A stretch of 40,815 bases of DNA from Stramenopiles sp. TOSAG23-2 (taxonomy: Eukaryota): assembly GCA_900128395.1 (NCBI GenBank), contig LT649305.1:1-40815 (forward strand), written 5' to 3'. The translations under genes were made by a program, and so were the position numbers. Positions 9,131 to 30,300 of this stretch are shown here, piece by piece. The stretch's first letter is position 1, and every line of letters begins with the position of its first letter. The notes below the pieces were generated by a model, which searched no databases, had not been told where the DNA came from, and worked only from the letters and a program-made list of their open reading frames with translations.

Positions 9131-9320
9131 GCTTTATTAAAACAACTAAGTAAACAAATTGTTAATAATGATGATTGTATTAATAATAACAGAGAGTTGG
9201 TTGTATGAATAGTTTCTCCCTTTTTCTATTTTATCTTTGTATGTAGTCGTATACATAAAATACTGTACATATTTTTGTTTTCTTACTATTTTTTTTATAA
9301 ATAACGTTTTTGTCGTCTTC

Positions 9321-9384
9321 TGCATGCTGGGCATGCTGGGCATGCGGGGGTCGGATCCTCTCTAGGCATGCCCAGCATGCCCAG
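9321..9384. repeat. GCATGC(CCA/TGG) 9-bp unit array forming a 19-bp inverted repeat
   Basis: CTGGGCATGCTGGGCATGC (9327-9345) pairs with GCATGCCCAGCATGCCCAG (9366-9384). The array resumes at 9721-9754, after the MITE-like element. Confidence 0.85.
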
Positions 9385-9726
9385 TCTGTCCATTAATTAA
9401 TAAAATGATAAAATCCTGGCATTTTGGGCATGAAATCAATTTGATGAAAAATGAAAATCCGAGAATCATGATTTCATGCCCAAAATTCCAGGATTTTATC
9501 ACTTTAAAATTATTATAATAAATATCCGATACATAATTTGATACAAATATATTATTATTATAGTTATTAATAATATTATATTTTGACTATATAATTCCAT
9601 AATTAAAAAACCAAGGTATAGAAATAATGCATTTACTTACGGAAAATATTTTCACCTGAAATCTTGTTTTTAGTGCTATGTAGTGCTAAATTTTCCGTAA
9701 GTAATTAATGGACAGACTGGGCATGC
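9375..9726. mobile_element. MITE-like non-autonomous element (~340 bp) with terminal inverted repeats and two internal hairpins
   Basis: 25-bp perfect IR GCATGCCCAGTCTGTCCATTAATTA (9375-9399 / 9702-9726), whose outer palindromic GCATGC may be the TSD. Internal IRs: 9406-9438/9469-9501 (32/33 match) and 9633-9647/9690-9704 (15/15). AT-rich and non-coding. Confidence 0.7.
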
Positions 9727-9947
9727 CCACATGCCCTGGGCATTCCAGCATGCAACGACGCGTCGCACACTGGCACACGGCACACACCGTCTGTTTTTCT
9801 CTTTGGTTTTTTTAGTTAGTCAGAATTAGAGCATTAAGGTATTTTATACTATAATGGTATATAAGCCTATTTTAATATAGTGCTGTGCTATGCATGTTCT
9901 TTGGAAACAGCCTTTTTCATTCTACATTACTTTTACGTATCGCAAAG

Positions 9948-10004: not shown

Positions 10005-10125
10005 ATATAAAGAATAGTATATCCATGTTTGCGTCTCTCATCACCTATATACTATATACGCCTATCCAGCCTTTATTATTATCCACGGTATAGCTAACAT
10101 GGTCATACCATTCATCTTTCACTCC

Positions 10126-10176
10126 TTATTATGTCCAGGAAATATCTCTTACTATGTCCAGCTTACTGGACACAAT
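10126..10176. repeat. Left subterminal box array of the YR element
   Basis: TTATTATGTCCAG (10126-10138), TTACTATGTCCAG (10149-10161), 4-nt spacer CTTA, inverted box CTGGACACAAT (10166-10176). Confidence 0.9.
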
Positions 10177-10183
10177 GGGAATA

Positions 10184-10261
10184 GCATGGAGAGCTTCGCT
10201 CTCCATGCAACTCTGGTATCAGGGCCTTCGGCCCTATCAAAACGAAAGACGAAGTTTTGAT
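10184..10261. other. Three consecutive hairpins, two with C(GAA)G triloops on the minus strand
   Basis: GCATGGAGAGC-TTC-GCTCTCCATGC (10184-10208); AGGGCC-TTC-GGCCCT (10221-10235); ATCAAAAC-N10-GTTTTGAT (10236-10261). Confidence 0.85.
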
Positions 10262-10465
10262 GAAGGTAGAAGGTAAAGGATTATGGCCAATGAAAATAAT
10301 TACAAGTATTTATTTCTTCAATAAGCAAGAACAAGAGGAATAGGAAATAGTCAATGAACATGTAAAGCATACATGTTTACTGCAACATACAAACGGTTCG
10401 TATTAATATAATATTATATTATTATATTATTATATCAAGTTTGTAGCATACAATTATACTTTAAC

Positions 10466-12895
10466 ATGCCTCCTCGATCAACTCCATCATCTGTAGTAAA
10501 AAACAGAATCAAAAGTGATTATCATACAGCCTTAGCAGGCTTTGCAGATTGGTACTTTAATATCTTCCCAAATGGAGACAATGTTGCTGACAATGACGAA
10601 AGGAAAACATTATTGACACCAAATAATGCGCCTTTACGGTATTTCGATATCCCGGATAAAGCAAAATTTGTCAAACATATGGAAAATGTTGATATTGATA
10701 AGAATATTTTATTTGTTCATGTTCTATGGAAAAGAGATACACATTTCTGGCCAGAAGGACATTTTGGTAAAACTTACTTTGATCATCTTCGTTCAGGTTT
10801 ACTATTACGTTTGAATGAAGTATCTTCTGGACCAATGGACTATTCACAGCAGGCAACATCCAACATCAAAAAGTTTTATCAAGGTTTGAATAATGAATTG
10901 AAAGATCAAAAGGATGATGCTGGGTGGGATAGCAAAGGAACATCTGCTGTTCCTTGGTCTGTATATTTAGCAATTGCTACATATTTGTTGAGTGTTGATG
11001 TAACATATTGGCTTATGTTCCTCTTACAGTGGAACTTGATGAGTCGTAGTGTTGACATAACAAAAATAAATATTACTAGTTTTAGCTTTGATAATGATAT
11101 GTTAACTATTTTATATACACACCGTAAAACTCAAAGAAAAAAATCGACATCAACAGCAAATACTGTTCATATTGCAAGTAATCCCGTCAATCCAATTGTT
11201 TGTTGTGTATTGGCTCTTGCTGTAAATTTATTGAACAAAAATATTGATAACTTACAATTATTTGAAGGTGGATCAATTAAAAGTGGATACAGTAAGGCAA
11301 TTAGTGAGGCCTTAGACGATCCTGGTGTCAAAGAAGCACTCAAGGCTGTTGGGCTGTCTAAAGCAAAAATAGCCACTCATTCTTTGAGAAAATCTGCTGC
11401 GACATATGCTGCATCAGGAACTGACGGCACCCCTATGCATTTTACCATCCTCCTTCGTGGTGGTTGGTCCATCGGTAATGTATTGGAACGCTATTTTAGT
11501 CAAGCTGACCACGGAGATAAATTGATTGCTAACATTCTTGCTGGACGTAATTTTTTTACGAAAAGTTTCTCCCGACTCATACCGCATTTTAAACCTGACC
11601 AAAATCTTAAGCCAGATGTACTAAAAAGCCTATTTCAGGGAAAGTACATTGAGGAGTCATTTGATGAAATGGAAGGTTTCCTCCAGATGATGGTAGCACA
11701 ACTAGTATATCATTATGATTTCTTGGAAATTACATTAGGTGAAAATTCTTCTGTTGTTGGTGCATTAAACCGGAATTTTTTAAATCATCAAGATTTGAAA
11801 AATGCACTTGGTCCAGATTTTGCAGATGAAACCACACAAATAAAGGCTACTGGCCAAGGTGGTTCTGTTGTATACCAAAGACTGGAAAAAATTGAGAAAC
11901 AAAACGAAGCCATCATTCAAACACTTGATACTATTGTAAAATTGCTTACTGGTACACGCAATGGAAATCAAGTTGTTACACAACCAGGACAACAACAAGT
12001 ACCTACTGCTTGGGCTGGTACTGCAATTGCTAATACAAATCAAAATGAGTTAGTCACATGTTTAAAAAAACTAGTACTAGATGGTCAAAAAGCAACAGTA
12101 GCTGCTGTTAAAAAGACCATTCAGGATATAAGTGGTGTATCAGCACCAACAGATGTACAACAAGTACACTTGAATGTGTTTGTGCATAATAGTGTCAAAG
12201 GTAGAGTATGGAAAGTAGCAAAAACTTACTGCCTCCCTACTGATTTTCGAGAAATGGTCCGCCAATATGTTTTTTCGAATCGCAGTACACGTCAAACAGC
12301 ATTGCGTGATTGTAATGCTCGTAATATCTTTTATGATGTTACTGATGATCCAAATAACGCAAAGAAAAAAAAAGCCTTTCGTAAGAAATACCAGCGTGCA
12401 ATTGTAGCAGTAAATTGCTTCTTACAATTTGCTTATATCAAGCATCGAGAGAAGTATAACCGTTTCTTGAATGAAAGGTCTGATCCGTATAAACGTGGTA
12501 CATTATTTAATGTTCTGTATCGGTCTGCCTGGGTTGATTTCAATTCTACATTAGTTTCACGCAAACGTAAACGAAAACTAAACGAAATTACGCCCGGCAC
12601 AGTATATATGCATATGCATCGTCGTACAGATGATTCAACATTTATCAAACGGTTACGAACATCGTGTAATCTTTCCACCATGTCCAAACGAGAACAAGAA
12701 TGGTCCTATCCACTACCATCACTAACATTCACAGAATCAGATGCTAGTCCATTACTTGATATTGAAGAAAATTCAACAGCAAGTGGCATGGCAAGTAATA
12801 TGATGATGCCAATGCCGTCGACTTCAGATGTTGTCGATTCAAGTAGCACAACTTCTACTACCACAATTGCAACAAATACACAACAAAGTGTGTAA
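10466..12895 (+). CDS. Tyrosine recombinase of CryptonS type (809 aa) with a C-terminal putative DNA-binding (GCR1_C-like) region
   Basis: Catalytic set R194 (WNLMSRS), K221 (RKT), H305-x-x-R308 (THSLRKSAAT), W334 (LRGGWSIG), Y343 (LERY). The HIASNPVNPIVCCVLALA segment resembles oomycete/diatom Crypton YRs. Basic NLS-like runs KKKKAFRKK and RKRKRK. Confidence 0.9.
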   Translation: MPPRSTPSSVVKNRIKSDYHTALAGFADWYFNIFPNGDNVADNDERKTLLTPNNAPLRYFDIPDKAKFVKHMENVDIDKNILFVHVLWKRDTHFWPEGHFGKTYFDHLRSGLLLRLNEVSSGPMDYSQQATSNIKKFYQGLNNELKDQKDDAGWDSKGTSAVPWSVYLAIATYLLSVDVTYWLMFLLQWNLMSRSVDITKINITSFSFDNDMLTILYTHRKTQRKKSTSTANTVHIASNPVNPIVCCVLALAVNLLNKNIDNLQLFEGGSIKSGYSKAISEALDDPGVKEALKAVGLSKAKIATHSLRKSAATYAASGTDGTPMHFTILLRGGWSIGNVLERYFSQADHGDKLIANILAGRNFFTKSFSRLIPHFKPDQNLKPDVLKSLFQGKYIEESFDEMEGFLQMMVAQLVYHYDFLEITLGENSSVVGALNRNFLNHQDLKNALGPDFADETTQIKATGQGGSVVYQRLEKIEKQNEAIIQTLDTIVKLLTGTRNGNQVVTQPGQQQVPTAWAGTAIANTNQNELVTCLKKLVLDGQKATVAAVKKTIQDISGVSAPTDVQQVHLNVFVHNSVKGRVWKVAKTYCLPTDFREMVRQYVFSNRSTRQTALRDCNARNIFYDVTDDPNNAKKKKAFRKKYQRAIVAVNCFLQFAYIKHREKYNRFLNERSDPYKRGTLFNVLYRSAWVDFNSTLVSRKRKRKLNEITPGTVYMHMHRRTDDSTFIKRLRTSCNLSTMSKREQEWSYPLPSLTFTESDASPLLDIEENSTASGMASNMMMPMPSTSDVVDSSSTTSTTTIATNTQQSV

Positions 12896-13225
12896 TATGT
12901 AATATATTTTTTTGTTTAATTATTATATATAATAATAAATAGTCTTTGACACACACATCATTATTTATTATTATGGTTTTAAGTCTCCTCGTATAATTCT
13001 TATGCTATCCCCCTGCTACGCATCTCCTGCGCTCGTATACAATGATATTTATATGTATAATAACTGCTCAACTGCTGTAAAATCTAATAATTTCTTTTAT
13101 ACTTGCTATTCTACTAAAAGTAATACATATAATAATAAAGTATCCTTAAAATACATATCAATTATCAATTATTCACTATTAAAACTATCCGGTATTTATA
13201 AGGTGAACCAGTGCTAATATTATAA

Positions 13226-13372
13226 TTATCATGTCCCCCAAACTGGACATAATAACAGCAAGAACTGAGTATTCTGAGTTCTCTAACGCTGTGTCATGCT
13301 AGCAGAACTGGAAAATATCTCTTACTATGTCCAGACACCTGGACATAATAAGAGATTTTCTGGACATAATAG
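13226..13372. repeat. Right subterminal box array of the YR element
   Basis: TTATCATGTCCCC-CAAA-CTGGACATAATAA (13226-13255); TTACTATGTCCAG-ACAC-CTGGACATAATAA (13322-13351); CTGGACATAATAG (13360-13372). The 22-mer AAATATCTCTTACTATGTCCAG is identical at 10140-10161 and 13313-13334. Confidence 0.9.
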
Positions 13373-14132
13373 TGGCGGAATCAGAAATCTTGTTATCTAT
13401 GGTACAGTATTGATGCGTTTTTCATCAACGAACTTTCTACAGTATTTTTATAGCCATTTTGCCAAAAAATATCGCTACATACTTAGTTATAACACTATCA
13501 ATATAATAATGATTTTAATCATATCACTATGGTAAAGATGTTTAGGTGAAAAAATATACTATCCAAACATAATTAACTACCAAGTAAGTCTGGTATAATT
13601 TTTTCTGTCAGTCTTTTATTTTTTACGATAGGGTTGAAATTTATTCGACATCTATCTATCTAGAAAAATGGTGCTAGACACATGCTAATTGTTCCCGTCC
13701 ACAAACCACATATGGAAGACCCATTTCTATAATATGAAGATAGCATAGAAGGCTTAAATTAAATTACGGCTTGTGATTGGTGGAGTTCCAACTGAACGAA
13801 AGTAAATTTCAAACAACATTATTTTTATCCAATTATAAGACTGTTAAGAATAGAAAAGTAAAAAATTAGTCGGTTGCCATTTTGTTGTAAGTAAAAGTTA
13901 TCCAATGCTATTTGCATTCTAAATTGATACTAACAACGACCAAAAAAAGAAAATCTTAACAACTATTTTTATCATACATACACACACACACACAAAAATA
14001 TAAGTATATATATATATATGTATATATGCTTACACATCAAACTGGATATCAAATTTATGCTTAAAACACATTAATAACTAGAACTATTCAGATCAAAACA
14101 AAAGACACAAACTATAAACTATTATATAAAAA

Positions 14133-14906
14133 ATGAAATCCGCTACATTCATTGTTGTAATCGCTACTGTACTTGGTGCAGCAAATGCATACTGCCCAAA
14201 CGGTTGCTCTGGTCATGGTACATGTCAAACAGCTTCCACATCAACTGGAACTATTAAAGATAGTTGCTTATGTTTCACCCATTTGGATGGTGGATCCACC
14301 CCAGTACCAGCATGGACTGGCGCAGATTGCTCCTTACGTACATGCCCAAGAGCAGGAGCATGGGCAGCAGCTCCAGCAGCAAACAACGACCACGTTTCCG
14401 GCGACAACCATGTAGAATGTGCTAACAGAGGTAGCTGTGACCGTAAATCTGGTACTTGCTCTTGTGCAACAGGATATGCAGGTGCTGCATGTCAACGTTC
14501 CGTATGCCCTAATGACTGTAACGGACATGGTGTATGCCAAACACAAAAACAACTTGCTGATGACTATTCACATAATGCTGACGATAATGCAGTAAGTTCT
14601 CAATTTGCAACCCCAGACGCAGACAAAGATTGTGTCGATTGTACTGGTACACCAAACTCAGGTGCTGTTTATGATAGTGCATGGGACAGTGGAAGAAGTG
14701 TAGGGTGTAAATGTGATTCCGGTTTCGCAGGTCCAGATTGTTCATTGCGTGAATGTCCATCAGAAGACGATCCATTGGGAGGTCCAGGTAGAAGCCAAGG
14801 CCGTGTATGTTCAGGACGTGGTACATGCGATTTTACAACTGGAAGTTGTAGCTGTTTCAGTGGATACTATGGTGAACGTTGCCAAAGTCAAACAGTATTA
14901 TTTTAA
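14133..14906 (+). CDS. Tubular mastigoneme (flagellar hair) protein, short SIG/Ocm-type EGF-like protein
   Basis: Signal peptide, then CPNGCSGHGTC, WTGADCSLRTCP, ECANRGSCDRKSGTC, CQRSVCPNDCNGHGVC, WD..RSVGCKCD.GF.GPDCSLRECPSEDDP, CSGRGTCD...QTVL. This architecture is characteristic of stramenopile mastigoneme proteins. Confidence 0.88.
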   Translation: MKSATFIVVIATVLGAANAYCPNGCSGHGTCQTASTSTGTIKDSCLCFTHLDGGSTPVPAWTGADCSLRTCPRAGAWAAAPAANNDHVSGDNHVECANRGSCDRKSGTCSCATGYAGAACQRSVCPNDCNGHGVCQTQKQLADDYSHNADDNAVSSQFATPDADKDCVDCTGTPNSGAVYDSAWDSGRSVGCKCDSGFAGPDCSLRECPSEDDPLGGPGRSQGRVCSGRGTCDFTTGSCSCFSGYYGERCQSQTVLF

Positions 14907-15349: not shown

Positions 15350-18300
15350 CTATAATTCATCACACCATACTTCTGGAATTGAAATCGACTCATATTCCGC
15401 AGAATGTACTTCGAAATTTCTAAACGAACCATTCATTCTACAAAAATTTGATTCTGTCTTTTCATAAAAATCCCACATAACATGAGCTGCAATGGTAGTG
15501 ATTCCTTCAGTACATTGAACGCATTTTCCAGGAAAATGTTGACCGGCCTTGCCATAAGAGATGCCTTCACAAGCAGGATTTTTGGCACAAAGATTTTGAC
15601 ATTCTTGCAGTGTATAAATATTTGGCCAGTTAGGATGAGTAGTAGAAATGTCATTCCAGCCATCGTTACAATATTTGCCAACCTGAGGCTGTGCATAATC
15701 ACTTCCATGCGCCCCTAATAAAATGCGTGATGTTTGGTATTTCGTCGTCGGAGTATCAGATGATTTGATACCACTTGCCTTTTTGCAAACTCTCCTGTTC
15801 TTTACATTGTCTTGACCGTTGTTTCCAGGATTCCACACGATTCGATTCCCATCTCCATTCGCTGCACTTTTGTCATTGTAATATGAACACCCTGAAGGAT
15901 GTAGATTTAGGTTAGTTGCCTGCTCGAAGACCGTGCCACTTCCACCATCCAACATCATGGTATCTTTTGCATGCTTACATTCTTCTTTTGTAAGTTCATA
16001 TAAACCGCAACGATCCCTCTCCGACTCCGCTATAACATAGGAATGCTCCCCATCATCTTCATGTATTATAATCTCATCACATTTCACAACCGTTTTTTCG
16101 GAATCAATTATAATCGCATAAGAATGCCAACGATTATCGTTGCAATGACTATTATGAAATATTGTATTTGTCAGTTTAAACTCTCCAACATGAATAATGC
16201 TTCCGTAATTTATAGTATCCGTAGTAATTTCTCGAACTTGAGCTTCAAATTGAACGACAATCGTTTGAAAGCTTGGGAACAAATTTTCTATATCGATTGA
16301 CAAAGCAGAAGTGCTAGCAGTATACCCGCCACTATCAATTATTCTGTTTGAATCTTGCAAAAGCGATCGTTTGCTTGCTTTAAAGTCATACCATTTATGT
16401 ATTGGTATCGCCGGATAAAAATCTCTTTCAACCGCTGTAGAAGCTTGTTGGCATTCCGCTAATGATAAACGCTTATTGTAAATTGTAACATCGTTTATAC
16501 GCCCGATATGAGATTGTGTCGGATCGAATTTACCACCAGTTTCATCTGGTTCTTCACCTATCATTACAACCGTTGATGCATCGCTGAAGACATACGAATT
16601 GGCAGAAAAAGTAATCTTGTTCACACCATCAATCGCCAAAAAGGAATCTGCAGCTCCTTTTTTATAAGATAAGCATATATGATACCATTTATTTTTATTT
16701 ATTTCAGATGCTGAAGTATCTACAGTATTAGCATGAGTAATAACGACACGTGCTTTTCCATCAGGTTTAATTCCAACATAAAAATTATTGTCACCACCAG
16801 CATCACTTGATAATGCAAACACGGCGTTACATCCTGTGTTAAACTCGTCGACTTTTATCCACATTGACACAGTATATTCTTCATACTGATATGCAAGACT
16901 TGTACTTGGGTTAGGTTGCAACATCATGTAAGAATCGCTATATTTTTCCAAATTATTAGTAACATAATCCATCCTTGGATAATTCGAAGGTTTATAAAAC
17001 TTATATCCTATCTTTCTAAACTCGTTCCATTTATAAATAGGGGTTGTGGGGTAGCTAGATGCTCCAGGCGCGGTAGATGCTTGTTGACATTCAGATAACG
17101 ATAAACGCTTATCATACACTGTCACATCTTTCATTTGACCCACAAAAGCTTGGGTGGAATCTAGTTTACCCCCAATACTGTCTTGTTCCTGACCTAACAT
17201 TATAAACGTATTTACGTCATTATAGACATCGACGTTACTAGAAAATGTTTTTTTATTTACACCGTCAATTGCCAAAAAGGAATCTGCAGCATCTTTTTTG
17301 TAAGATACGCAGATATGATGCCATGTATCTACATTTATCACAGAAGTTGAAGTTTCTCCTCCAAAACTACTAAAGTAAATCCCTGCTTTACCATCAGAAT
17401 GTATACCGACAAGAACATTGTTACTACTAAGTGTACTTGCTAGTGAAAACATTGCCATGTAAGATCTGCTACCAAATGAATCCTCTGTCTTTATCCACAT
17501 TGATATACTATATTCACTAAATGTATTTGCTATTACACCCGTTCCTCGTATGTATAAAAATTGCAATGCTTTTATCTGTGAATCCGTTAATTCTACCGTT
17601 TCTGAGTATAGTACAGTATTATCCACTATACATTCAACGCCGATACCTATAGTAGCTTGAACGTTGTGTAGACCAAAGCCTTCCACATTGTCAGCAACTG
17701 TTATCGACTTTGTATCTTTTAAAGCCCAATAAGTAGAGACGGCCTCGTCTTTATGATAAGGATTTGTCAAAACATACGATCCAGCATCGATTATTTTAAA
17801 CCCCGCTTCATCTTCGACAATATTTGTTTCAGCTAATACCATATCAACAATAGAATTACCAGTAAGTGTATGAAATAACCACCGATTATCATAGTTTGGT
17901 AATTTATTTATTACAGCTTTTTCTGTAAAGAGATTCAAAATTTGTGAAACCGTTGTATCACTTAAATATGTATCATAAATTGCAATTTGGCGCATCTGTC
18001 CTTTGAAATGTTGATTAGTACTTTTATCTTTACACCACCCTGCCGTTATTTTCGTATCGGCATCTGTTACAGAATTTAAAACATATTGATTAGCCCATCT
18101 TATATCGGAGCTAGAACTGACAAGTTCACCGTCCATATTGTAAATTTCCATCCTTTTCTTCTTACCATCAACCCTTGCAACTGCTATATAATCCTTGCCA
18201 GATTCTATCTTTGCATTGGGGAAATTAGAATTTTCTACATGTGTTGTTAAATAGTTGGTGGTGGAATATTTACGCACTGTCCAATATTGATCCTTTCCCT

Positions 18301-21300
18301 GTCCAATCAAATGATTCCATTCACCCGTCATATCATCAAAATGAAATGATACGAAAACGGTTAACATTTGATTTGCTGGTGTTGGTACGTTTGCAGAAGT
18401 CTCTAATTGACCAATAGCAAATTTAATAGACGGTAAGCCATTTATACCATCTGTGATGTATGTAACTGTACCAGTCGCCGTCGTCGGTATCAAATGCCTG
18501 TCATTGCCTGACAAATCATTCCATTGAGTAACATCATCTGCATTACTGCATGTCGTACTACAGGTTACACTACTCGCGTCGTACAATGCAAATAGATTTG
18601 TCGTGCCAGTAATTTCTGAAAGACCATTGTAAAGTGTATCACCATCTAAATTTGCACTAGTAATATATACATCTCCAACTGCATAGGTTTTAGGCATTCC
18701 TGCAAATAAAGTTGGATTTACATTGTCCACATAGCTGGAGATGGACCCGACAGATGGTTGACCTGGTTTACACTGACCCACACTCGGCGAACCATTAGTT
18801 AAACAACGGGCTAATCTTTCTTTTGTCCTGGCATTTTCTAATGTATTTTTCTCTTTCATGTATGCACCGACATATCTTGTTCCACATTTTCTTGACGGCG
18901 GGAAACTGGAGGTAGACAATGGGCATGTGTATTGTGTACCAAAACAATTAGTGATTTCAGTTTCGCGTAATATACCACAAGCTGTTCTCCAGGCATCTCT
19001 ACGAGTGTTACAAGCTGCCTCTGTAGTTGGATCTGGTCCTCCTTGATTGTGGTCGTGGAACCAACCTATATCCCCTAAAGCAGGAAAGTCTGCACACGGA
19101 CCTACAATTTTGATCATGCAAGTTACAATATCTGGTGTCCGGTAGATATTGTGCGATATTTTATCTATGGCATGAAATTTATCAAGCGTTATCGTTGGCG
19201 AAAGCAATGTACGATGTAAATTTAGTTTTCCATCTTTTGTTTTAAAGATATGCGCCGCTTTAGATGCTTCGTTGTCTGTAAATTTGCTTCGATCTAACGT
19301 CAGCGTGCCATTTTTGACATAAATTGCACCTCCACGCGTATCAGCATCAGTACTTTCATAAACTTGAAAATTTCTAAAGGATCCTTGCATTCTACTATGA
19401 AATGTGCTTGAATCATAATGTGCACCAAGAACAATATCATTGTTTTTATTGTTTAAAGAGGTTGTTCCAAAATTTTGATAGATCAACAATCCATCACATT
19501 TTACAACAGTTTTTTCAACATCTTGTATGACAGTATACTGATGGTAATTTCCATCGTCACATATACTATTTTTAAAATTATGATTTTCAAATTTCAAATT
19601 CCCTATTTGAAACAAAGAAGCAGAACTTGCTCTTCCAGGAATCCATTCATAGTTACATCGCGATTGTGGAGAGTCTCGACAGACTGGCCGCGATGAAGCA
19701 TGAGAGCTTCCCGTTTCATGCCGGTTCCAACGCACTATATGATACGATGGATTGATCTCAAATTTTATTTCAAAAATCCAAGGTGTATTCGTAGCTGGAA
19801 AGGCAACTTTAATTCTGCGTGTTTGAAACATTTTAGGACATTCCCTATATTGAAAAGAATAGGTTGCATCATCAGTGGTTAAAGCGCTACTACATTCTTC
19901 AACCCATGAATCTGATGTTTTGATGTAGCTAAATAATTTAACCCCAGTTGCTCTATTAGTACCTACCCGTACATAGACACCAACAATATTATATTCAAAA
20001 CCAAGATCTAGGGTAAAATAATGTTCAAAAGTACTACTTTCACCAGTTTTTGGATGCCAAAAAACATTGCTACTATCCAATACTTTTGCAACATCAAATA
20101 TGATATCATCATCGACATCGGGAGTACCAGTGGATACGCAACCAGTACAATCAACCCACCATGCCGGATTTGCCTCGAGAGTACGCGTATGATCTACTAA
20201 TCCACTTTCATAGTAACAACCCTTAGGACGAGAAGGATAGTCAACTTCAATGACGCCCGTCTGTAAGCAAATTGGTTGATGCAATCGATTTTTCATAACC
20301 GTATAATCTTCGTTGTATGCCAAAGCATTATTTCCGATGGCCTCATCGTTATATACGTAACAAGGGCTGGCTGAACCGCCTTTTGAAAATCGCTTGCTTT
20401 CATACGTGTGCCATTCCGTACTTTCAGTCTTTTTCGAACAAGTTAGGGTAATGGATTTACCATGAGCATCACTAGCAACTGTTACAACTTGTTCATTGTC
20501 ATCATTTCTGCAAGTATACTTCACAATGTAATTCTTCGTTGAACACCCAGAAGCTAGATCGTCAAGAACGTTCGAATTTACATTATATACGCAAGAAAAT
20601 TGATGGTCACATTTGCTTTTAATATCGGACAAATGGTTTCCAGAATTATCAGATGTTCCTGGACAATTTGCTCCATAATGCGCGTAGTGTACGTCAATAG
20701 TTGCAATGCCAACAAACCAAGCTGTTGCTTGCCAATCACATTGATAATAATGATCGCAAAACATCGTATTTTGAAACGCAAAAGCTTTACATCGAGGTTC
20801 CTCCAAACATTTTTTTCTACATAGATCTATATCTAGGTTATTTCCTAACATTTTTTTTGTTTGGGTCGGCAATGTTCCATCTTGAAAGGCGAATGCATTT
20901 ACAATAGACGAGACGATATCATCATTTAGGTATGTATCAAATATGGCAAGTTGACGCATGTAACCAGAAAAACTATCTTGATTATTATCGCGGGTACTGC
21001 CTCTAGCAACATTTATTTTCTGCGTGCCAGATGGAATTTTTTCACTAGCAGTGCCTTTTGTATATGCACGACTTAGTAGCTCACCTTTCATGTTATAAAG
21101 TTTTATTTCTCGCATTTGTCTATGGACTCTTGCCACGATTACATAATCCATATCAGCATTTATATCTATCTTTGGATCTGCGTCATTAACGACTTGAAGC
21201 CACAATTTTGAATCCTTATCATGTCGAATCAATCTCCAGTAATTATCATGCCCTTGGCCTACCAAATGGTTCCACCCCTCATTAAATGCATGAAGTTCAG

Positions 21301-24300
21301 TAAATCGAAATGACAATATCATAGTCACATTTCTTGAGGAAGGTGTTGAAGACGCCGATGCAGTTTCCATGAAGCCACCGTTAAAATAAACAGAAGGCAA
21401 TCCAGCAATGCCTTCGTTTTTGAAAGTGACTGAATTTTCTCCAGTGATTGTATCTTTTATCAAATGATTATCGTTCCCTGACAAATCATCCCATTGAGTC
21501 AATTCATCGCCATCAACAATTCCTGTTATGCTATTTGCATCGTACAATGCCATCAAACTTGCTGTACCTGTTAAGTCGGAAATGGTTTCGGATAATAATG
21601 TTTTACCTGTCCACGTATGTGATCCATCCGCTTCTAAGCATGCTAATCTATTGTCGTTAAATTCAGCGTTACTGCATGTTCCACTTGGCGCAGTAACCCA
21701 ACCACCATTTGGTGCTTTGCAGCTATCACCATGCATAACTTGCCATGCATCATCCGATTTATATTCATTCGCTTCAATTGTTTCAGATGCGGGTAATCCC
21801 ATGGTTGGACATGCAGCTTCAGCATCCGTATCACCAGGCTGGAGACAGCAGCATAATGGGCGATGGTTAGCATGTAGATTAGCATCACACTGACTTGCAA
21901 GTTCTCCAGTACATGCACCAGCAGTACATCCCGCATGAAACCATGAGCACCCGGAATCCGAAATTCTTATAAATGGAGAACCGGCATAATCTCGCGCTAT
22001 ACTACCACCAATACCACAAGAAGCGCATTCTAGCTTGTTTGGAAGTTCATCATGATCTTTCTCCATATTAAAATTTACATGTTTTAATGCCATTTTCATC
22101 TTGTCACAAGTATCCAATTTTGTTTGTTGACCGGAGTTACATGTTCCTCCTACATGGTTACAAGCTTCATTGCAAGTATCACCTCCGTCACCCAATACCC
22201 AACGTGTCTTTCCCCCCAACTTTGGTAAACCAGTACCAGAAATTTGACCACCAGATGATTTGGCACAGCGTAAATAATTGAAATTTGATTGAAATGCAAT
22301 TTCACCAAGGCCGACTTGATTTCCATCGGATAAAGAGTATTGGTTGTAAAAATTACTTAACGTTTGCAATTTTACATATCTAGCTTGTATATTCATATCA
22401 AATGGAAAACTTTGCCTTGGTAGATGCCTGTAATTCAAAGAAAATGTTGGCTCATACCTTATAGATTCTCCAAAACGATCGAGTCCTTCTTCTTCTGTAG
22501 CAAATTGCAAAGTGAAATCTTTTAAACCATTTCCTGAACCATCATATCCCCAAAGACTGATTTCATTTATCGTTTCATCTTTTGCAAATGCAATTATTAA
22601 ATAAGGGTGGTGATTTACACTACCCATGAAATAACCAGGCCAATCAGTACTTTTCGTTAACCACTTGTTGCCGCCTATTTGATCATATGGTGCAGCACTA
22701 CTAAATCCAGTACCAGCACCTGATTTTAAATTGGATGCTGGATTTACATCGGTATCTGCGGAAGATGATGTAATGGAAACGATTGGAATAAACGTCGCAA
22801 CTTCATCCTCTTTCAATATAGTAGTGCCACTTGGACAGGTATATGTATCGGTAGGACCTATAAAGTATGGCGATATGTGCAAACCTGGAATTTTATTAAC
22901 ATTTTCAATTGTACACTGTTCATAAGTTAATGGAGTTCTTGATGAAACAGTTTCTTCAGCACTATTACACTCATTGCTATTTAGATTACCTAGACCATAA
23001 TATGGTTCCTGAATATCACAAAACCCTCTTTTTTTAAGATATTCATAATTTGATGGTTGGCAACTGGATTTGGGCGCATCTGTTGGCACATTGTTGAATT
23101 TATCTACTTTTTTACAGATTGGATAATGATGCCCTAATCCAGCACCAGTCCCATGTGAATTAAAACGTATACCCGTGCTTTTAACATCTTTGTTTGATAT
23201 ATCTTTGTAATAATAGCAACCTTTTGGTTTATTAGCATCCGTTTCCGTTGCATACGGATTTGATGTATGTTTCGATACGAATGCCACGATTTTTTTATCA
23301 TTGATAAAATTACATGCATCTGCATACCAAGCTGTGACCCCTGCATATAAATCGTTACAAGTAACGTTATCCGTATGTTTAAGACTATCCGAATTGTATT
23401 GTTGACAATCAGCATCTGTTGTACAGTCTCCAGCACCACTATTCCATAAGCAATCGGAATCACTTCCATAGCAATAAATGTTGTCATTTTCTACTCCTAC
23501 ACATACTGGCCCATCGGAATGAGAACCACACATAATAGAACCTTCCTTTCTACTTAATGCTTTACACGTCGCTTCATCAATCTCTTCCGCACCATCTGGA
23601 CATTTATTTCCCCCTGTATTTGCAATGTGATATGTTACTTCCTCCAATTCTGTAACTTCTTCAGTTGAAGTACACACTGGTTGAGCTATATGTGTTGCTG
23701 TTCCGGTTGAATGTCGATTGTACCGTACAACAATACCATCCACTGTACCAGTATTTATTGTATCGTCTGGTATCATACAAACAACTCCAACCGTTCCATC
23801 TCCAGTTATTTCTCCCTCAAGTTTACTAACTTCTCCTGCTACAGGAGTAGAACCTAAAGGACAGTCCGTTGGTATATCTTGATCCCTATGAAAAAGAACG
23901 CATTTACCTTCTGGATGGAATTCAACGGCTGCAATATCTGATCTCCAATAGACGGATGCATAACACTCTTCCGCAGATGTTCCTTCTTTTCCACCATCAA
24001 ATGTACAACTTGCTCCATATTTTCCATATACATCACGACATTGCCCTTCCGTTGTTTTATATGGATGAGATACGACAACATTTGGTGAAAACGGCGATTC
24101 CTTATTTGGAATGAGGCAATGATTGCTACCATCCCCATCGCCATTAACAATAACTTCACTATTGAAATCTACAGCCATATGGCCTTTCCCATCGCCAACT
24201 TGGCTTGCAGTGAAACCATCTGGACAATTTGTTGGACTTGCACCAGATGCATATATACTTTTGCATGTTACCCCATCATTACCAAGCGTAACAGCAACTA

Positions 24301-27300
24301 CACCATGTCTAAATGCAGTGCGAAAACATTCTGCAGGATTCCAAGCTAAAGTTTTTGAACAGTACCCCCCACTATAACCATTTGGATCTTTACATAATCC
24401 AGCTTCTTGAATGAATGGATATGGTTCGATGATGGAACATCCTTTTGGAATATGGCTATTATCTACTATTTCGTAAAATTTATTATATGCCTGCCAATTC
24501 AATGGTGGATTCTCACAGTATGCTTTATCAACTTGCCTTCCACCTTCTTTAATATTGCACGAGGATGGTATCCATTTTGGAAATTCTGCTTGACAATTTT
24601 CTTTACTAACTTCCCTGCCATGGTCATTTGGGTGCATGGCGTCTGATATACATAGAGGATAATCATGAGATTTTTTCGCTGAATATGGCAATACACGTTG
24701 ACAAAGTACTCCTAGTAAATCTTCCCCAATGCCAACATCATGCCATTTTCCATGCTCACCATCTCCATGTAGATCACTTTCCACGGCCATTCTAGTTTCC
24801 GTTGTACCTGCTATGTCTGTAAGCGATGAAGTGTAAGCCCATGGGCTAGTATCATCCCATGTCCATGTGCCAGCTCCATCTGACATTGCACCTACGTAAA
24901 ACATAGATGTAGTTACACTTTCCATTGCCTTTAAAGTCTGCTTCATTAATTTATTTTCTTCTTCGGTAAGAATAGTTGCAATGAATCCACCGTTCTGTAA
25001 ACACCATTGTTTTGAATCAACATAATTTCGAGCACCTGGCAAAGCGAAATATTCTTTATAGGTAGCTGATGGCCATGCACTTAATCCAGTTGGATGGCTA
25101 TTCCATCGTAAATGAATATTTTCATTCCCGTCATCAATTATATAGCATCCTGGTGGATTTAAATCTGAATAAATTGATTTAAAAGAAGCGATTTCAAATT
25201 CCACTTTTATCGTACGACTAAATGCAAATTGTATCGTTTCTTTTGTGCATTTATCTTGCGTAATTGAGGAGCTTCCAGTAGGACATGTTAAAGTGTTTAT
25301 ATGAAATATATGACTGCCACACGTACCTGCAGTCCATGTCCCTGTTGTTTCACACGCAGTGGCAGTTTTATATTGATCTTTGTTACATTCACCAGAAATC
25401 CAAGTTCCTTTTTGAACACATGCTTCCTCTGTCGTGTATGCCGCATCGGAGCAGCTGCCGCAAGTTGGGTGGGTTGGGTTGCCGGTAGTTGGACAAGCAG
25501 CTTCAGGATCATCACCGGGCTGGAGACAACAGCACAGAGGTTTATGACCAGCATTAATATTAGTATCACATGAACTTACATCGACCCCAGCAGTATATGA
25601 ATCATCAAAAAAAGCACAATTTGTATCACTGGACAATGGGGGACAACCATCAACGCATACATTTCCGTCTATGCCATCTGAGGCGCAACCACTTGCACAG
25701 TTATTAGATACACAACCCGTACAACATTTCCCACCTCCACAGGGACCCAGGCAATTTGAACAATCCCTTGGTAGAAAGAACGGAGTTCCTGCATAGTCAC
25801 GCCCAGCATGACAAGTATCGCCACAAGTATACCCAGCAGAGTTTGCTGCCATTTTTACCTTATCACATGTGTCTAATTTTGTTTGCTGAGCTGAATTACA
25901 CGTACCACTAATGGCATTACAAACAGTGTTGCAAGTATCACCTGTTCCGCCCATTACCCAGCGAGTAGCTGAGCTACAGTCTTTCACCGAATCAGTCCAC
26001 GTACCAGCTGGATTTTCACACAGAGTAGGACTTTTTTCTCTACCACCAGATGTTATATCACAATATCCAAGTTCCCATGATGTTCCATTGAGACGGCATG
26101 CTTTTTCAGTGGTGTATGCTGAATTAGAACAAGAGCCATCTGTCCATGTACCAGTACATGTTGATTTAGAAACTTTTTTACATAAAGTTATAATATCATT
26201 TCTACCTCGAGTTCCTCCCGTTGGATTATACTTTACATCATTCCATGGATATATACCAGCGCTGTAAGATGTGCCTTGATGCACATGGCAACCTTTTGGC
26301 ATGTCAGTATTACCAGTATTATCTAATGCTGCATCTGCGTCGGAGAAACCGGCACTTGTAGTTGCTGCGCTTAAACATTCATTTTCATCAAAATCCAAAT
26401 AGGATGTCTCAATGTCATCCATGAAAAGTGAGTCGCATTCTGGTCCATTTTCTAATGCAACATGTTCAAAACCATTTGTACAAGTTCCTTTTGTCCAAGT
26501 ATTTACGGTCGTGTCTAAACATGCAGTTTCAGAAACTTCCCTGCCCCCTGATTTAATATCACATTGTTTTACTGTAAATGAAGTCCATACTCCAGCAGGA
26601 CCAGTGCAATCGGCTTTACTAGCTTCCCTACCATTTTTAAATGCTGGATATATAGTTAATTCGATATCGTGCGCGCCGTAACCGTTCGGAGAAGATGTTG
26701 TTGATACATCATAAGGCTCACGGTTAGCCCAGTATGTTTCAATGTTAGCAGCAACAAAGGGAGACCCAGCACCTCTACCTGCGCTGATAGCTTTGACGCC
26801 AGCTTGATTACCATTGATAATTTTGGTTTGAACCATTATCATTTTAACATAATTAGCTCCATCAATATTGTGACCATATATCAACCATTTGTCAGAAGAC
26901 ACTTGATGAAAACTGGGGGAGCTGTAGGGAGCTGTCAAGGCGATAAATCCCCCATCCATCGTTGCATTAGTAATTTCAATTCTTCCAATATCATTAGCAC
27001 TAGTAAGAGCAGTAAGGTATGCACTTGTTGTTACAAATGTATTAGCTGCTGTGGTTCCTGTCTCTGTCGTAGAAGATGGGGCTGAACACATTCCTTCATT
27101 CCACGTACCAGGAGTTTCACATGCTACCTTCTCATTATATTCAGAACCTGTACAAAATGCCTCTGTCCATTTACCTTTGTTTTCACACGCAAACTCGTTT
27201 AAATATTGAACTGACCTAACACAAATACCAGCATAATGGAAGTAACAGTCCACCCCACCATTCTTAAAACGAAGAGCCCGGATCTTCATCTCATCTTCTC

Positions 27301-30300
27301 GCTTGTGAAGAGTAACCGTATGACTTCCAGCTCCAATCTTATAAGATACTATTTGAGCCGCTACCGGATCTCTCCATGTAAAGTCGTTTGAATGTCCTTC
27401 CAAATGCCAAGCTTCCGGATTACCACCATCCACGCTTATATAAAAGGAATCGGAACCACCATCTGGTGCAATTACTTCTGCTTCAAACGCAATTGTAGTG
27501 GGAGCAGAGCATGTAAATGGAAAAGTGATGCTTCCACTATTAACACCATCCGGAACTTCCACATGATCACCTGAAATTACAAACGGGGATTCTATCACAC
27601 CATCCAACGCTTGAATTTGCGTAACTCCACTATTTTCATTATAACGAAGTAATACCCCAACATCTGGATGACGATATACGAAACATCCAAGGGAAAGTTT
27701 ATTATCATTGATCTTTTCATACAAATTATCAGTCACACCATCTACAGTGAAAAAATTAATTCCCAAATGTTTTTCTAACAAAGCGATTGTACATTCTTTC
27801 TCCGTTGCAAGTCTATATCCTGGTAAACATTTCTCACCTTTATTTGTATAAACTAACCCTTCTTCGCATTTTCCTTTGATCAATGGTTTGTCAAATAACT
27901 TTGCTATGAATTCGCTATTGCTACATTCCGCTTCAGTTACACGCCGTTGATAATTTTGTTCCACATTTCCTACGTTATGATTGTTACACGTTGTTGAACT
28001 AGATTTTCCAATTGAAAATTTTTTTTGAAAACATTTAGAATGAACCGTTTTAGATGGTTTCACCATAATTGAATAACGTTTCCATTTACTGACTTCAACT
28101 TTGTACGTGTGTATATTTGTTATTGACATTGTTGTTGCCTGAGTCATAATTGAACAATTTGTAAGAGAACGTGCACATTCCCCACCACCTGTCGTTTCTT
28201 TCCATGAAAATCCATTACAATTAGAAGCAGCAAGGCAATATTCATAACAATCGTTTGCTGTATAATATGTGTTTGATGTCGTATCCACATCATATTCATC
28301 ATCACAACGACCCATGCCGATAAAGGAATATCCTAAATCTACTTCACTCATTTTTACTACTTTCATATCAAAATGAACTACAAGGGAATGTGTTGTAGGT
28401 AAAATATGATTATCCAGCTCAAATTGTAACGCTTTAATATTTTCTGAAGAGGCTGTATCAAGTGTTGCGTTAGGAACAGTTACTGATTGTTCTGCACCTG
28501 TATCAGGGTCGCAAGCTCCAATATTTTCAAATCCAGCATGGTTACCGAGGCATCTTCCTATGACTCTAGTTCCAATTCCATTTCCATCTTTAAATTCTAC
28601 ATTTTTTGCAATAAAATGCCCGTCGCTATCGATTTTAAAAAGGCGATTTGATCCTTCGCTAATTATTTTTGGCAATACACCGGGAGAAATTTCTGTGCCA
28701 TAAATTTCTAATTTATCCGTCACTAGGATTTCATTATGCAATGTACAATCTGCTGTTAAATGTACTTTTCCGTTCGATTTAAAATCACACACATTAACAA
28801 AATTCGCTTTCCACACGTCGTTGTAACGATTTGTCGAATCATTTGGATTCCTACCACCGAATAGGAATAGACTGTTTTTATATACGACCATTGAGGAAAA
28901 TATTCTACTTGGGGGTGAAGATCCATCATTATTTTTTATTATAAGTGCTTTCTTTAATGAAGATGAAATTGATATTGATAAGGAAATCAATTCATTTCCA
29001 CTTGGACCAAAATAAAAAATATCATTACCATACATTGCAATGGCTTTGGAAACTATTGTTGGATCCATTGCATTTTCACCAATATTTGTCCATTCCTTGG
29101 TGATTAAATCAAACATCCATACGTTTCCCAAAACATTTGCATTATAATCATACCCGGCAAGTATATACATACGAGTTGAATCCATGAATGCTGCATGGTG
29201 ATTTCTAGCTTCTGAACCACTACCAGCGGTAAACGCAATTGCTTCCCATCCGACCGATTCTATTAAAATGGTATCAGCATCGGGTAAATTCATGGAATAG
29301 ATATCATATCCAGTTTCTGCAGCTTCGTTCTCACATGTTTTATGTATATAACAACAATATGGGGGTGCATTAGCTGTTCTTGAAAAAAAATTACAACCCT
29401 CCACCTCTTTGCAAACTTCTTCACATTTTAGATAATCCATCATATTGCATAAACCAGATCGTTTGTTTATGGTATCCACCGACCACTCTATTGTGTTTGC
29501 TGGGTTCACATATTTTACTGGTAAATCTTTGTAATGCAATTCTAAATATTCTAATGTGTATTCAATGTCAGCGCCACTATGCACTTGGCATATTGTATCC
29601 ATGGGTGAAGTACCTTTTAAAGAAGGTCTCTTCATTGGACCTGGTATCAATCTGTATCTGTGTAAATCGTCCAAACGGTTAGCACAATTATGCCCTCCAA
29701 AAATATACATACTATCATCATATACAACAGCACTATGCCCAGAGCGTTTGGTTGGATTTGGCGGTGAGCCTCCATCTGCAATAATTTCTTCCCATGCATT
29801 TGTAGCATAATTATACATTTGAAGATCGTTTAAACAAGTCGATCCATCGTAACCACCAAATACGACTAACGTTTCTGTATAAGATGCTGGCACTTTGAAA
29901 CTCAAATCAGAACTATCCAATTCATGCCCTAACTTTTTAAATTGGTTTCCATCAATAGTTATATCGTCATTTACGGCATAACCGCTTCCCATTTTCTTGA
30001 AAAAAATGGATGTCAAGCCGTTATTATTAATATGAATATCAAATGTAGCGCCACTTCCATGTCCTGTATTTCCTTTTTCTATTACATTGTAATAATGACC
30101 TTCGATTGTTGAATAATGAATTTTTGTCCATGTACCTGAAGCACCAGTGCAATCAGCTTCTGTCAATTTTGTATTATCATCGCATGTTCCACTTACTCCC
30201 CAGCTAGTCGTATGCTGCGCTGCGCCATTTTTAACATTAAATGTTATTGGAATTTCAGACCTACTGTCACCATCACTCGAGGTAATATCATTAATCGTGA

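What the first reader, a model, noticed from the sequence alone, without database searches (positions are those of the whole stretch)
10098..13403. Apparently intact eukaryotic tyrosine-recombinase element with a predictable crossover site
Seen: uninterrupted 809-aa YR with full R-K-HxxR-W-Y set. Direct cores CATGGT (10098) and TATGGT (13398) lie almost symmetrically outside the box arrays. Their inner neighbours CATACCA and TGTTATC are 5/7 inverted, so a circular junction would read TGTTATC-(T/C)ATGGT-CATACCA, an att-like site. Knowledge: Cryptons are YR transposons with short terminal direct repeats, and stramenopile CryptonS ends are, as I recall, typically TATGG. Inference: a potentially active excise-circularise-integrate system with a ~6-bp target.
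Basis: partly seen in the sequence, partly recalled or inferred. Interest (0 to 1): 0.75.

Follow-up and report, generated by a model that had tools for sequence, protein, structure and literature searches.

The report
Crypton transposon with two-base crossover site
An intact jumping gene from a marine single-celled eukaryote uses a Cre-like enzyme and shares only two DNA letters with its landing sites; its vacant site and its end-to-end joint both turn up in ocean sequence data, which gives a concrete way to test how this little-studied class of jumping genes moves.

Summary
The 809-aa ORF has a Flp/Cre/Ndc10-like fold and R194-K221-H305-R308-W334-Y343. Copy homology ends at 10112 and 13380/13382; the ATGGT cores lie in host flank.

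All 12 left ends begin TCATCT. All 14 right ends are followed by TC and four variable bases, usually then AT. The target is (A)(T)-TC-NNNN-(A)T, with only 2 bp shared. Public contigs show the empty allele (2 of 4 runs laid) and an end-to-end junction (3 of 4 runs, plus one JGI contig). That junction is a symmetric att site: 12-bp box, 9 bp, TCATCT, 9 bp, box.

The element's spacer always returns to the left end. This fits exchange of one strand at TC, with the Holliday junction resolved by replication or host enzymes (inferred). Circle and head-to-tail dimer cannot be told apart here.

It is a CryptonS-like variant lacking the 5-6-bp repeat. A 2026 review calls the Crypton mechanism undemonstrated. 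The scan's sequence look-up found no look-alike; it has noted other Crypton-like elements.

The parts
10112..13380 (+). Autonomous Crypton-like element, 3269 bp, from the left TC to the right GGAA; the second TC (13381-13382) completes a 2-bp direct repeat
   Evidence: Copy alignments; joints 10111->13381 and 13380->10112, each 3269 bp
10110..10111 (+). Target-derived AT left of the spacer
   Evidence: Kept in the empty allele; AT in 7 of 12 left ends, A at -2 in 10 of 12
10112..10117 (+). Element's own 6-bp spacer TCATCT; TC is the only homology with the target
   Evidence: 12 of 12 left ends; centre of the end-to-end junction in L081 and
10118..10126 (+). Left 9-bp arm between spacer and first box, beginning TTC (inverted partner of GAA at the right end)
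   Evidence: Symmetry of the junction
10127..10177 (+). Left box array: 12-bp boxes (TATTATGTCCAG type) at 10127 (+), 10150 (+) and a degenerate inverted one ending at 10177 (-); probable recombinase binding sites (inferred)
   Evidence: kept in non-autonomous copies
10112..10240 (+). Left terminal segment shared with non-autonomous derivatives
   Evidence: 98% match over 129 nt to L066; loose ends at 10240 in three runs
10466..12895 (+). 809-aa tyrosine recombinase; catalytic R194, K221, H305, R308, W334, Y343; helical C-terminal domain about 570-745; low-confidence tail 751-809
13050..13380 (+). Right terminal segment shared with non-autonomous derivatives
   Evidence: loose ends at 13086
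13227..13371 (.). Right box array: palindromic pairs 13227-13254 and 13323-13350, and terminal inverted box 13360-13371
13372..13380 (+). Right 9-bp arm ending in GAA
13381..13388 (+). Target-derived spacer TC-AGAA and target AT
   Evidence: Present in the empty allele; TC in 14 of 14 right ends, T at +8 in 13 of 14, AT at +7/+8 in 10 of 14
10098..10103 (+).
13398..13403 (+).

Best explanation
A CryptonS-like tyrosine-recombinase (YR) transposon that moves through an end-to-end joined form, most likely a circle. SHOWN: the ends, the empty allele, the junction, the 2-bp TC homology, the weak palindromic target (A)(T)-TC-NNNN-(A)T, non-autonomous partners and an intact sister copy. All four junction types fit one crossover at TC. 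INFERRED: the YR binds the 12-bp boxes and the GAA/TTC arms and cleaves at the edges of a 6-bp spacer, as Cre and Flp do. Only the top strand is exchanged, at the left edge, where TC gives the pairing needed for ligation. The four mismatched bases block the second exchange, so the Holliday junction is resolved by replication or host enzymes. The same top-strand exchange between the two ends makes the circle with the left spacer and restores the original target. Because one sister molecule keeps the parental state, this route can also raise copy number.
For: Ends fixed by 12 left and 14 right ends with different flanks. Empty allele in runs X9 and X6, junction in X3, X4 and X6, and junction in JGI contig L081. 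The target rule and junction were written down before (note). Boxes sit 9 bp from a 6-bp centre on both sides, and the target's preferred A and T frame the same 6 bp (binomial P 6e-4 and 8e-6). Polarity: 12 of 12 left ends carry ATCT, 0 of 14 right ends do; under a 50:50 outcome, the 11 right ends of this family alone give about 5e-4 (own arithmetic). Fold matches Flp, Cre and Ndc10. Sister copy L063 is 90% identical with an intact 804-aa ORF, dN/dS 0.26. Precedents: 2-bp homology for the first exchange in IntDOT (PMC2034462, abstract); replicative resolution in integrons (PMC3458562, abstract); clean excision with rising copy number for CryptonF-1_cRei (PMC9977147, passages).
Against: No cleavage site was mapped: sequence alone shows only a crossover at TC. 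Contigs cannot separate a free circle from a head-to-tail dimer, and both element ends themselves fit the target rule. Contigs drop rare variants, so junctions with target-type spacers could be missed. The junction was not among the exact matches in the own genome. Invariant ATCT could instead be a sequence the protein reads. The empty allele may be pre-insertion and so says nothing on excision. Expression was not tested: no RNA run was laid. Fold E-values are modest (best 6.8e-4) and Pfam finds no domain.
Confidence: 0.6

Rival explanations
1. IntDOT-like: both strands are exchanged (first with 2-bp homology, then without homology), and the 4-bp heteroduplexes are repaired with a strong bias towards the top strand.
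For: IntDOT does ordered homology-dependent, then homology-independent exchanges (PMC2034462, abstract). It gives the same four junction sequences if repair is biased.
Against: Unbiased replication would put ATCT at the right end in about half of insertions; 0 of 14 do. It needs an extra, unobserved repair bias at both junctions.
Confidence: 0.18
2. The overlap is only the 2-bp TC, and ATCT is part of an asymmetric left binding arm; recombination is a complete two-strand exchange with a short stagger.
For: Simplest reading of the junction sequences. ATCT is kept across subfamilies 10% apart.
Against: Box spacing and target preference are symmetric about 6 bp, not 2. Described YR spacers are 6-8 bp (PMC3212892, passage).
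Confidence: 0.1
3. The end-to-end junctions are chromosomal head-to-tail arrays, mainly of non-autonomous copies; free circles are rare or absent.
For: Junction contig depth is high against end depth: 12.4/176, 34.3/67 and 35.7/55, far above 36 versus 6,959 reads for a Starship circle. L081 has a non-autonomous interior and does not close on itself. Element ends fit the target rule, so insertion into an existing copy gives this junction.
Against: Depths are means over whole contigs and may include shared end sequence. None of the 6 left and 6 right ends of this family in the own genome abuts another end. Arrays with this exact junction are most simply made by integrating a circle.
Confidence: 0.11
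4. One reading: (T/C)ATGGT direct repeats are the crossover cores, as in TATGG-type CryptonS.
For: Both motifs are present; most CryptonS families have TATGG ends.
Against: Homology of all copies ends inside them; the observed empty site and junction use TC; such 5-mer pairs arise by chance in 45% of trials.
Confidence: 0.01

Closest known systems
CryptonS transposons of oomycetes and diatoms (Kojima and Jurka 2011, PMC3212892)
   Same: Single YR ORF, about 3 kb, no GCR1_C domain, 1.3-1.7-kb non-autonomous partners, no long TIR or TSD. The best Atlas feature hits include oomycete and diatom clusters without Pfam (0.98, 0.97).
   Different: Listed CryptonS repeats are 5-7 bp (mostly TATGG) or not determined. 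Here only TC is repeated and four of six spacer bases are free. Junction and empty allele are both seen.
CryptonF-1_cRei of Chlamydomonas (PMC9977147)
   Same: Donor motif at one terminus recombines with a target motif; clean excision; copy number rises.
   Different: 5-bp near-identity (CACCG/CAYCG) against 2 bp here. No circle junction in the passages read.
Starship Hephaestus (PMC10104507; bioRxiv 10.64898/2026.09.21.753150)
   Same: Eukaryotic YR element with short one-sided homology plus a conserved distal target base (TTAC-N7-A); circle junction found in deep reads.
   Different: DUF3435 captain, giant cargo, 4-bp homology. This element is 3.3 kb with no cargo and no Pfam DUF3435 match.
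CTnDOT / IntDOT of Bacteroides (PMC2034462)
   Same: First strand exchange needs 2 bp of homology next to the cleavage site; the rest of the overlap may mismatch.
   Different: IntDOT performs the second exchange; a bacterial conjugative element. Here the outcome is strictly polar.
Integron attC x attI insertion (PMC3458562) and strand-biased circularizing elements (SE, PMC9345347)
   Same: YR with one-strand exchange; SEs have a 6-bp spacer taken from one end into the circle.
   Different: Integrons use folded single-stranded attC. In SEs the spacer moves from attL to the new attR and so changes between generations; here it returns to the left end and stays constant. SEs have four core genes.

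Membership tests
Crypton (broad sense) | Eukaryotic DNA element encoding a YR with R-H-R-Y residues and no RT or DDE enzyme | tested here: met
   One ORF of 120 aa or more in the element; residues and conservation; Flp/Cre/Ndc10 fold
Crypton (broad sense) | Multi-copy and mobile, not domesticated | tested here: met
   Ends at different flanks, empty allele, sister copy at another locus
Crypton (broad sense) | 4-6-bp terminal direct repeats reflecting target microhomology | tested here: not met
   Microhomology is present but only 2 bp (TC), 14 of 14 right and 12 of 12 left ends. Many published families are 'n.d.' for this feature.
Crypton (broad sense) | No long TIRs and no true TSD | tested here: met
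   One TC is in the empty allele and one in the junction; only subterminal inverted box arrays
Crypton (broad sense) | Circular intermediate (proposed model) | tested here: inconclusive
   Junction seen in 4 data sets; circle versus tandem not resolved
CryptonS | No GCR1_C domain | tested here: met
   No Pfam match in the query and no GCR1_C in 30 of its 150 listed homologues that were scanned
CryptonS | 5-6-bp direct repeats, mostly TATGG | tested here: not met
CryptonS | YR falls in the CryptonS clade; conserved C-terminal region | not tested
   No labelled reference sequences were available. Atlas scores for oomycete/diatom clusters (0.98, 0.97) and a fungal NDC10_II/GCR1_C cluster (0.97) do not separate S from F; residues 565-750 gave no Atlas hit.
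CryptonF | GCR1_C domain after the YR | tested here: not met
Starship | DUF3435 captain and cargo genes | tested here: not met
   No Pfam match; no cargo

The most novel reading that the evidence does not exclude
This is natural evidence for the free circular intermediate of a Crypton, at high abundance in wild plankton. It belongs to a eukaryotic recombinase that integrates a circle into almost any A.TC.....T site (one per ~120 bp in this window; the strict form one per ~970 bp) by exchanging one strand at a 2-bp homology and letting replication finish. That is an integron/CTX-like copy route, and it would explain why Cryptons both excise cleanly and multiply. It would also be a small landing-pad-free integrase.
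Probability: 0.4. Interest if true: 0.85.

Novelty: new variant of a known kind. Interest (0 to 1): 0.68.

Why it matters
A 2026 review states that the Crypton mechanism has not been demonstrated and that the circle is a model (PMC13565253, passage). In families with 5-6-bp repeats, donor and target spacers are nearly identical, so the products say little about which strands were exchanged. Here four of six spacer bases differ, which marks the origin of each junction, and all four junction types are in hand with an intact enzyme. That turns a 20-year-old model into a direct assay with defined sites. It also links Cryptons to Starships (TTAC-N7-A) and to bacterial YRs that tolerate mismatched overlaps.

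Tried and rejected
ATGGT ends and TATGGT at 13528: rejected. Pfam on the protein and its halves: no real match. PDB sequence search with the 81-sequence profile: 3 matches, all E 0.2 or worse. Viral contigs: no relative and no end motif. Atlas on residues 565-750: no usable hit. Of 26 metagenome loci matching the end pattern, 16 had no further similarity to the element and were dropped; 10 were kept, one of them (L062) on a 34-nt terminal match only. The loose pattern search of the own genome gave 125 matches against 123 for the control, so only exact matches with the box array were used; two exact matches (C654, C1437) were set aside as not ends. Pairing the non-autonomous left and right ends in the own genome failed because contigs break inside the repeat; C2390 with C3010 is plausible but unproven. 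No left end or recombinase was found for the sister family. Cluster look-up gave no informative names. Only 4 of 20 holder runs were laid, and the two possible source runs were left out.
Full report
**Observation.** The ORF at 10466-12895 (+) encodes 809 aa without interruption. Pfam and a PDB profile search find nothing. A scan of 1.84 billion representatives finds 1816 proteins at E up to 0.001, the best 50% identical. In an alignment of the query, 79 of these hits and one paralogue, K221 and Y343 are invariant and R194, H305, R308 and W334 nearly so. The AlphaFold model (mean pLDDT 76.5) matches Flp and Cre, then Ndc10, Xer and lambda integrase (best E 6.8e-4). Atlas feature hits include oomycete and diatom clusters without Pfam and a fungal NDC10_II/GCR1_C cluster. 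It is a Crypton-type tyrosine recombinase.

**The true ends.** The own genome holds five more left ends and five more right ends, at 92-100% identity. Homology starts at 10110-10112 and stops at 13382. Three right ends of a sister family were added. Ten of 26 metagenome loci matching an end pattern belonged to the family; the pattern stopped before the spacer, so it did not select spacers. One sister end (C6644) first appeared with a pattern that asked for T at +8 and was then recovered by plain DNA search. In total, 12 of 12 left ends read TCATCT, preceded by A at -2 in 10 and by AT in 7. All 14 right ends read GAA-TC, then four variable bases, then T at +8 in 13 and AT in 10 (P 2e-6 to 6e-4 against flank composition). 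Three complete copies have both flanks: the window (AT-TC-AGAA-AT), L063 (CT-TC-AGCA-GT) and L068 (AA-TC-AACA-AT). The ATGGT motifs are 8 and 15 nt outside the ends. A shared 5-mer arises in 45% of random pairs of 25-nt stretches.

**Empty site and junction.** I laid contigs of 4 of 20 holder runs, from four studies, leaving out the two possible source runs. Runs X9 and X6 join 10111 to 13381 (45 and 58 letters on the shorter side). X9 has no cover over most of the ORF. The insertion is therefore polymorphic, and the vacant site is AT-TC-AGAA-AT. Runs X3, X4 and X6 join 13380 back to 10112 (26, 21 and 43 letters on the shorter side). JGI contig L081 carries the same junction in full. It reads 12-bp box, 9 bp ending GAA, TCATCT, 9 bp starting TTC, inverted 12-bp box. 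I had noted this junction and the target rule. Against over-reading: these are contigs, not reads; a head-to-tail dimer gives the same junction; junction depths (12-36 against 55-176 for the shared ends) are whole-contig means; and the own assembly has no such junction.

**Family.** The protein search of the own genome finds only this full copy of the family, one 29%-identical second family and one short fragment. The other ends belong to non-autonomous elements of about 1.56 kb (from overlapping L066 and L081) and 1.64 kb (L068). They keep about 130 bp of the left end and about 300-330 bp of the right end; the 1.56-kb type has an internal inverted repeat of about 350 bp. L063 is a second autonomous copy at another locus, 90% identical, with an intact 804-aa frame and dN/dS 0.26 (0.21 over residues 1-430). 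Run X4 holds a 99% identical 1607-bp piece of the ORF; the 28 of its listed differences that I tested introduce no stop.

**How it probably works.** Shown: left end, right end, junction and empty site all fit one crossover at TC. Inferred: box spacing and target preference are both symmetric about 6 bp, the usual YR spacer (6-8 bp, PMC3212892), so TC is the left edge of a 6-bp overlap whose other four bases mismatch. If both strands were exchanged and sorted by replication, ATCT should end up on the right in about half of insertions; it does in 0 of 14. Exchange of the top strand only, at the edge where TC can pair, gives exactly the four observed sequences for both integration and excision. 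The Holliday junction would then be resolved by replication or host enzymes. The element has no second ORF for a resolvase. An earlier unchecked note of this scan reports a Crypton-like element carrying RusA (e1-7617607), which would fit a need to resolve such junctions; I did not test it. Rivals: IntDOT-like double exchange with biased repair, a true 2-bp overlap, and arrays without free circles.

**Comparison.** Published Cryptons have 4-6-bp repeats. Kojima and Jurka's table lists repeats of 5-9 bp, long TIRs for two families, or 'n.d.'; none of 2 bp. The element works like a Crypton and resembles CryptonS, but it fails the repeat criterion and was not placed on a tree with labelled references, so I do not file it as CryptonS. 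Starship Hephaestus has a comparable one-sided target, and its circle was reported in a 2026 preprint. A 2023 paper and a 2026 review say the Crypton circle or mechanism is not demonstrated. Five searches on Cryptons listed no paper whose title or abstract start reports a Crypton circle junction or a 2-bp Crypton end. The library lacks most subscription papers, Repbase could not be searched, and bioRxiv supplements are closed, so such families may already be recorded.

**Papers seen.** PMC3212892: passages and supplement 1 whole. PMC9977147, bioRxiv 2022.05.23.493040, PMC9345347, PMC13465315, PMC10104507, PMC12130899 and PMC13565253: passages. bioRxiv 10.64898/2026.09.21.753150: parts 1-2 of 4. 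PMC2034462 and PMC3458562: abstracts. Goodwin 2003: not seen, known through these citations. CTX-phage integration is recalled, apart from a passing mention in PMC9345347.

**Host.** Marine by the runs that hold it; AT-rich, with long single-ORF genes. A stramenopile host is my inference, not tested.

**Verdict.** Observation partly confirmed; interpretation partly supported (kind right, site wrong). New variant of a known kind. Interest 0.68.

Noticed in passing
window 9300-9830: Nested inverted-repeat (MITE-like) DNA just upstream of the element; 67 matches in the own genome; several runs skip or replace it (joints 9310->9826, 9334->9783), so it is polymorphic too.
   Followed up: partly
window 12972-13062: A 60-90-bp segment in the 3' non-coding part of the element recurs at 81-92% identity on eight other contigs, away from element ends; run X4's copy differs by many indels nearby.
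   Followed up: no
L031 / G000:C4211 (ORF 295-2574, - strand): Second YR family, 759 aa, 29% identical, with different palindromic boxes. Its five right ends share 18 nt past the last box and its two left ends 12 nt, again a 6-nt excess but on the right side. Too few ends to fix a spacer.
   Followed up: partly
G000:C1442, C6644, C9066 (L086, L087, L088): Sister family of right ends, about 73% like this one, with the same GAA-TC-NNNN-A(T/C) rule; no left end or recombinase found.
   Followed up: partly
L014 (G000:C2390) left flank: This copy sits in an 8-bp repeat (CCAGCATT units) whose repeat spells a perfect AT-TC-NNNN-AT target; a 14-mer of it occurs 131 times in the genome.
   Followed up: partly
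window 15350-31735 (-): A 5461-aa uninterrupted ORF with a signal-like start and many cysteine-rich repeats.
   Followed up: no
window 14133-14906 (+): 257-aa EGF-rich secreted-type protein that recalls stramenopile flagellar-hair proteins (recalled, not tested).
   Followed up: no
P0001 cluster: The closest full-length homologue is clustered with 32-57-aa fructose-1,6-bisphosphatase fragments; no likeness by eye, probably a clustering artefact.
   Followed up: partly
many own-genome loci: Adjacent exact duplications of about 55-250 bp recur in many contigs and look like scaffolding artefacts.
   Followed up: no
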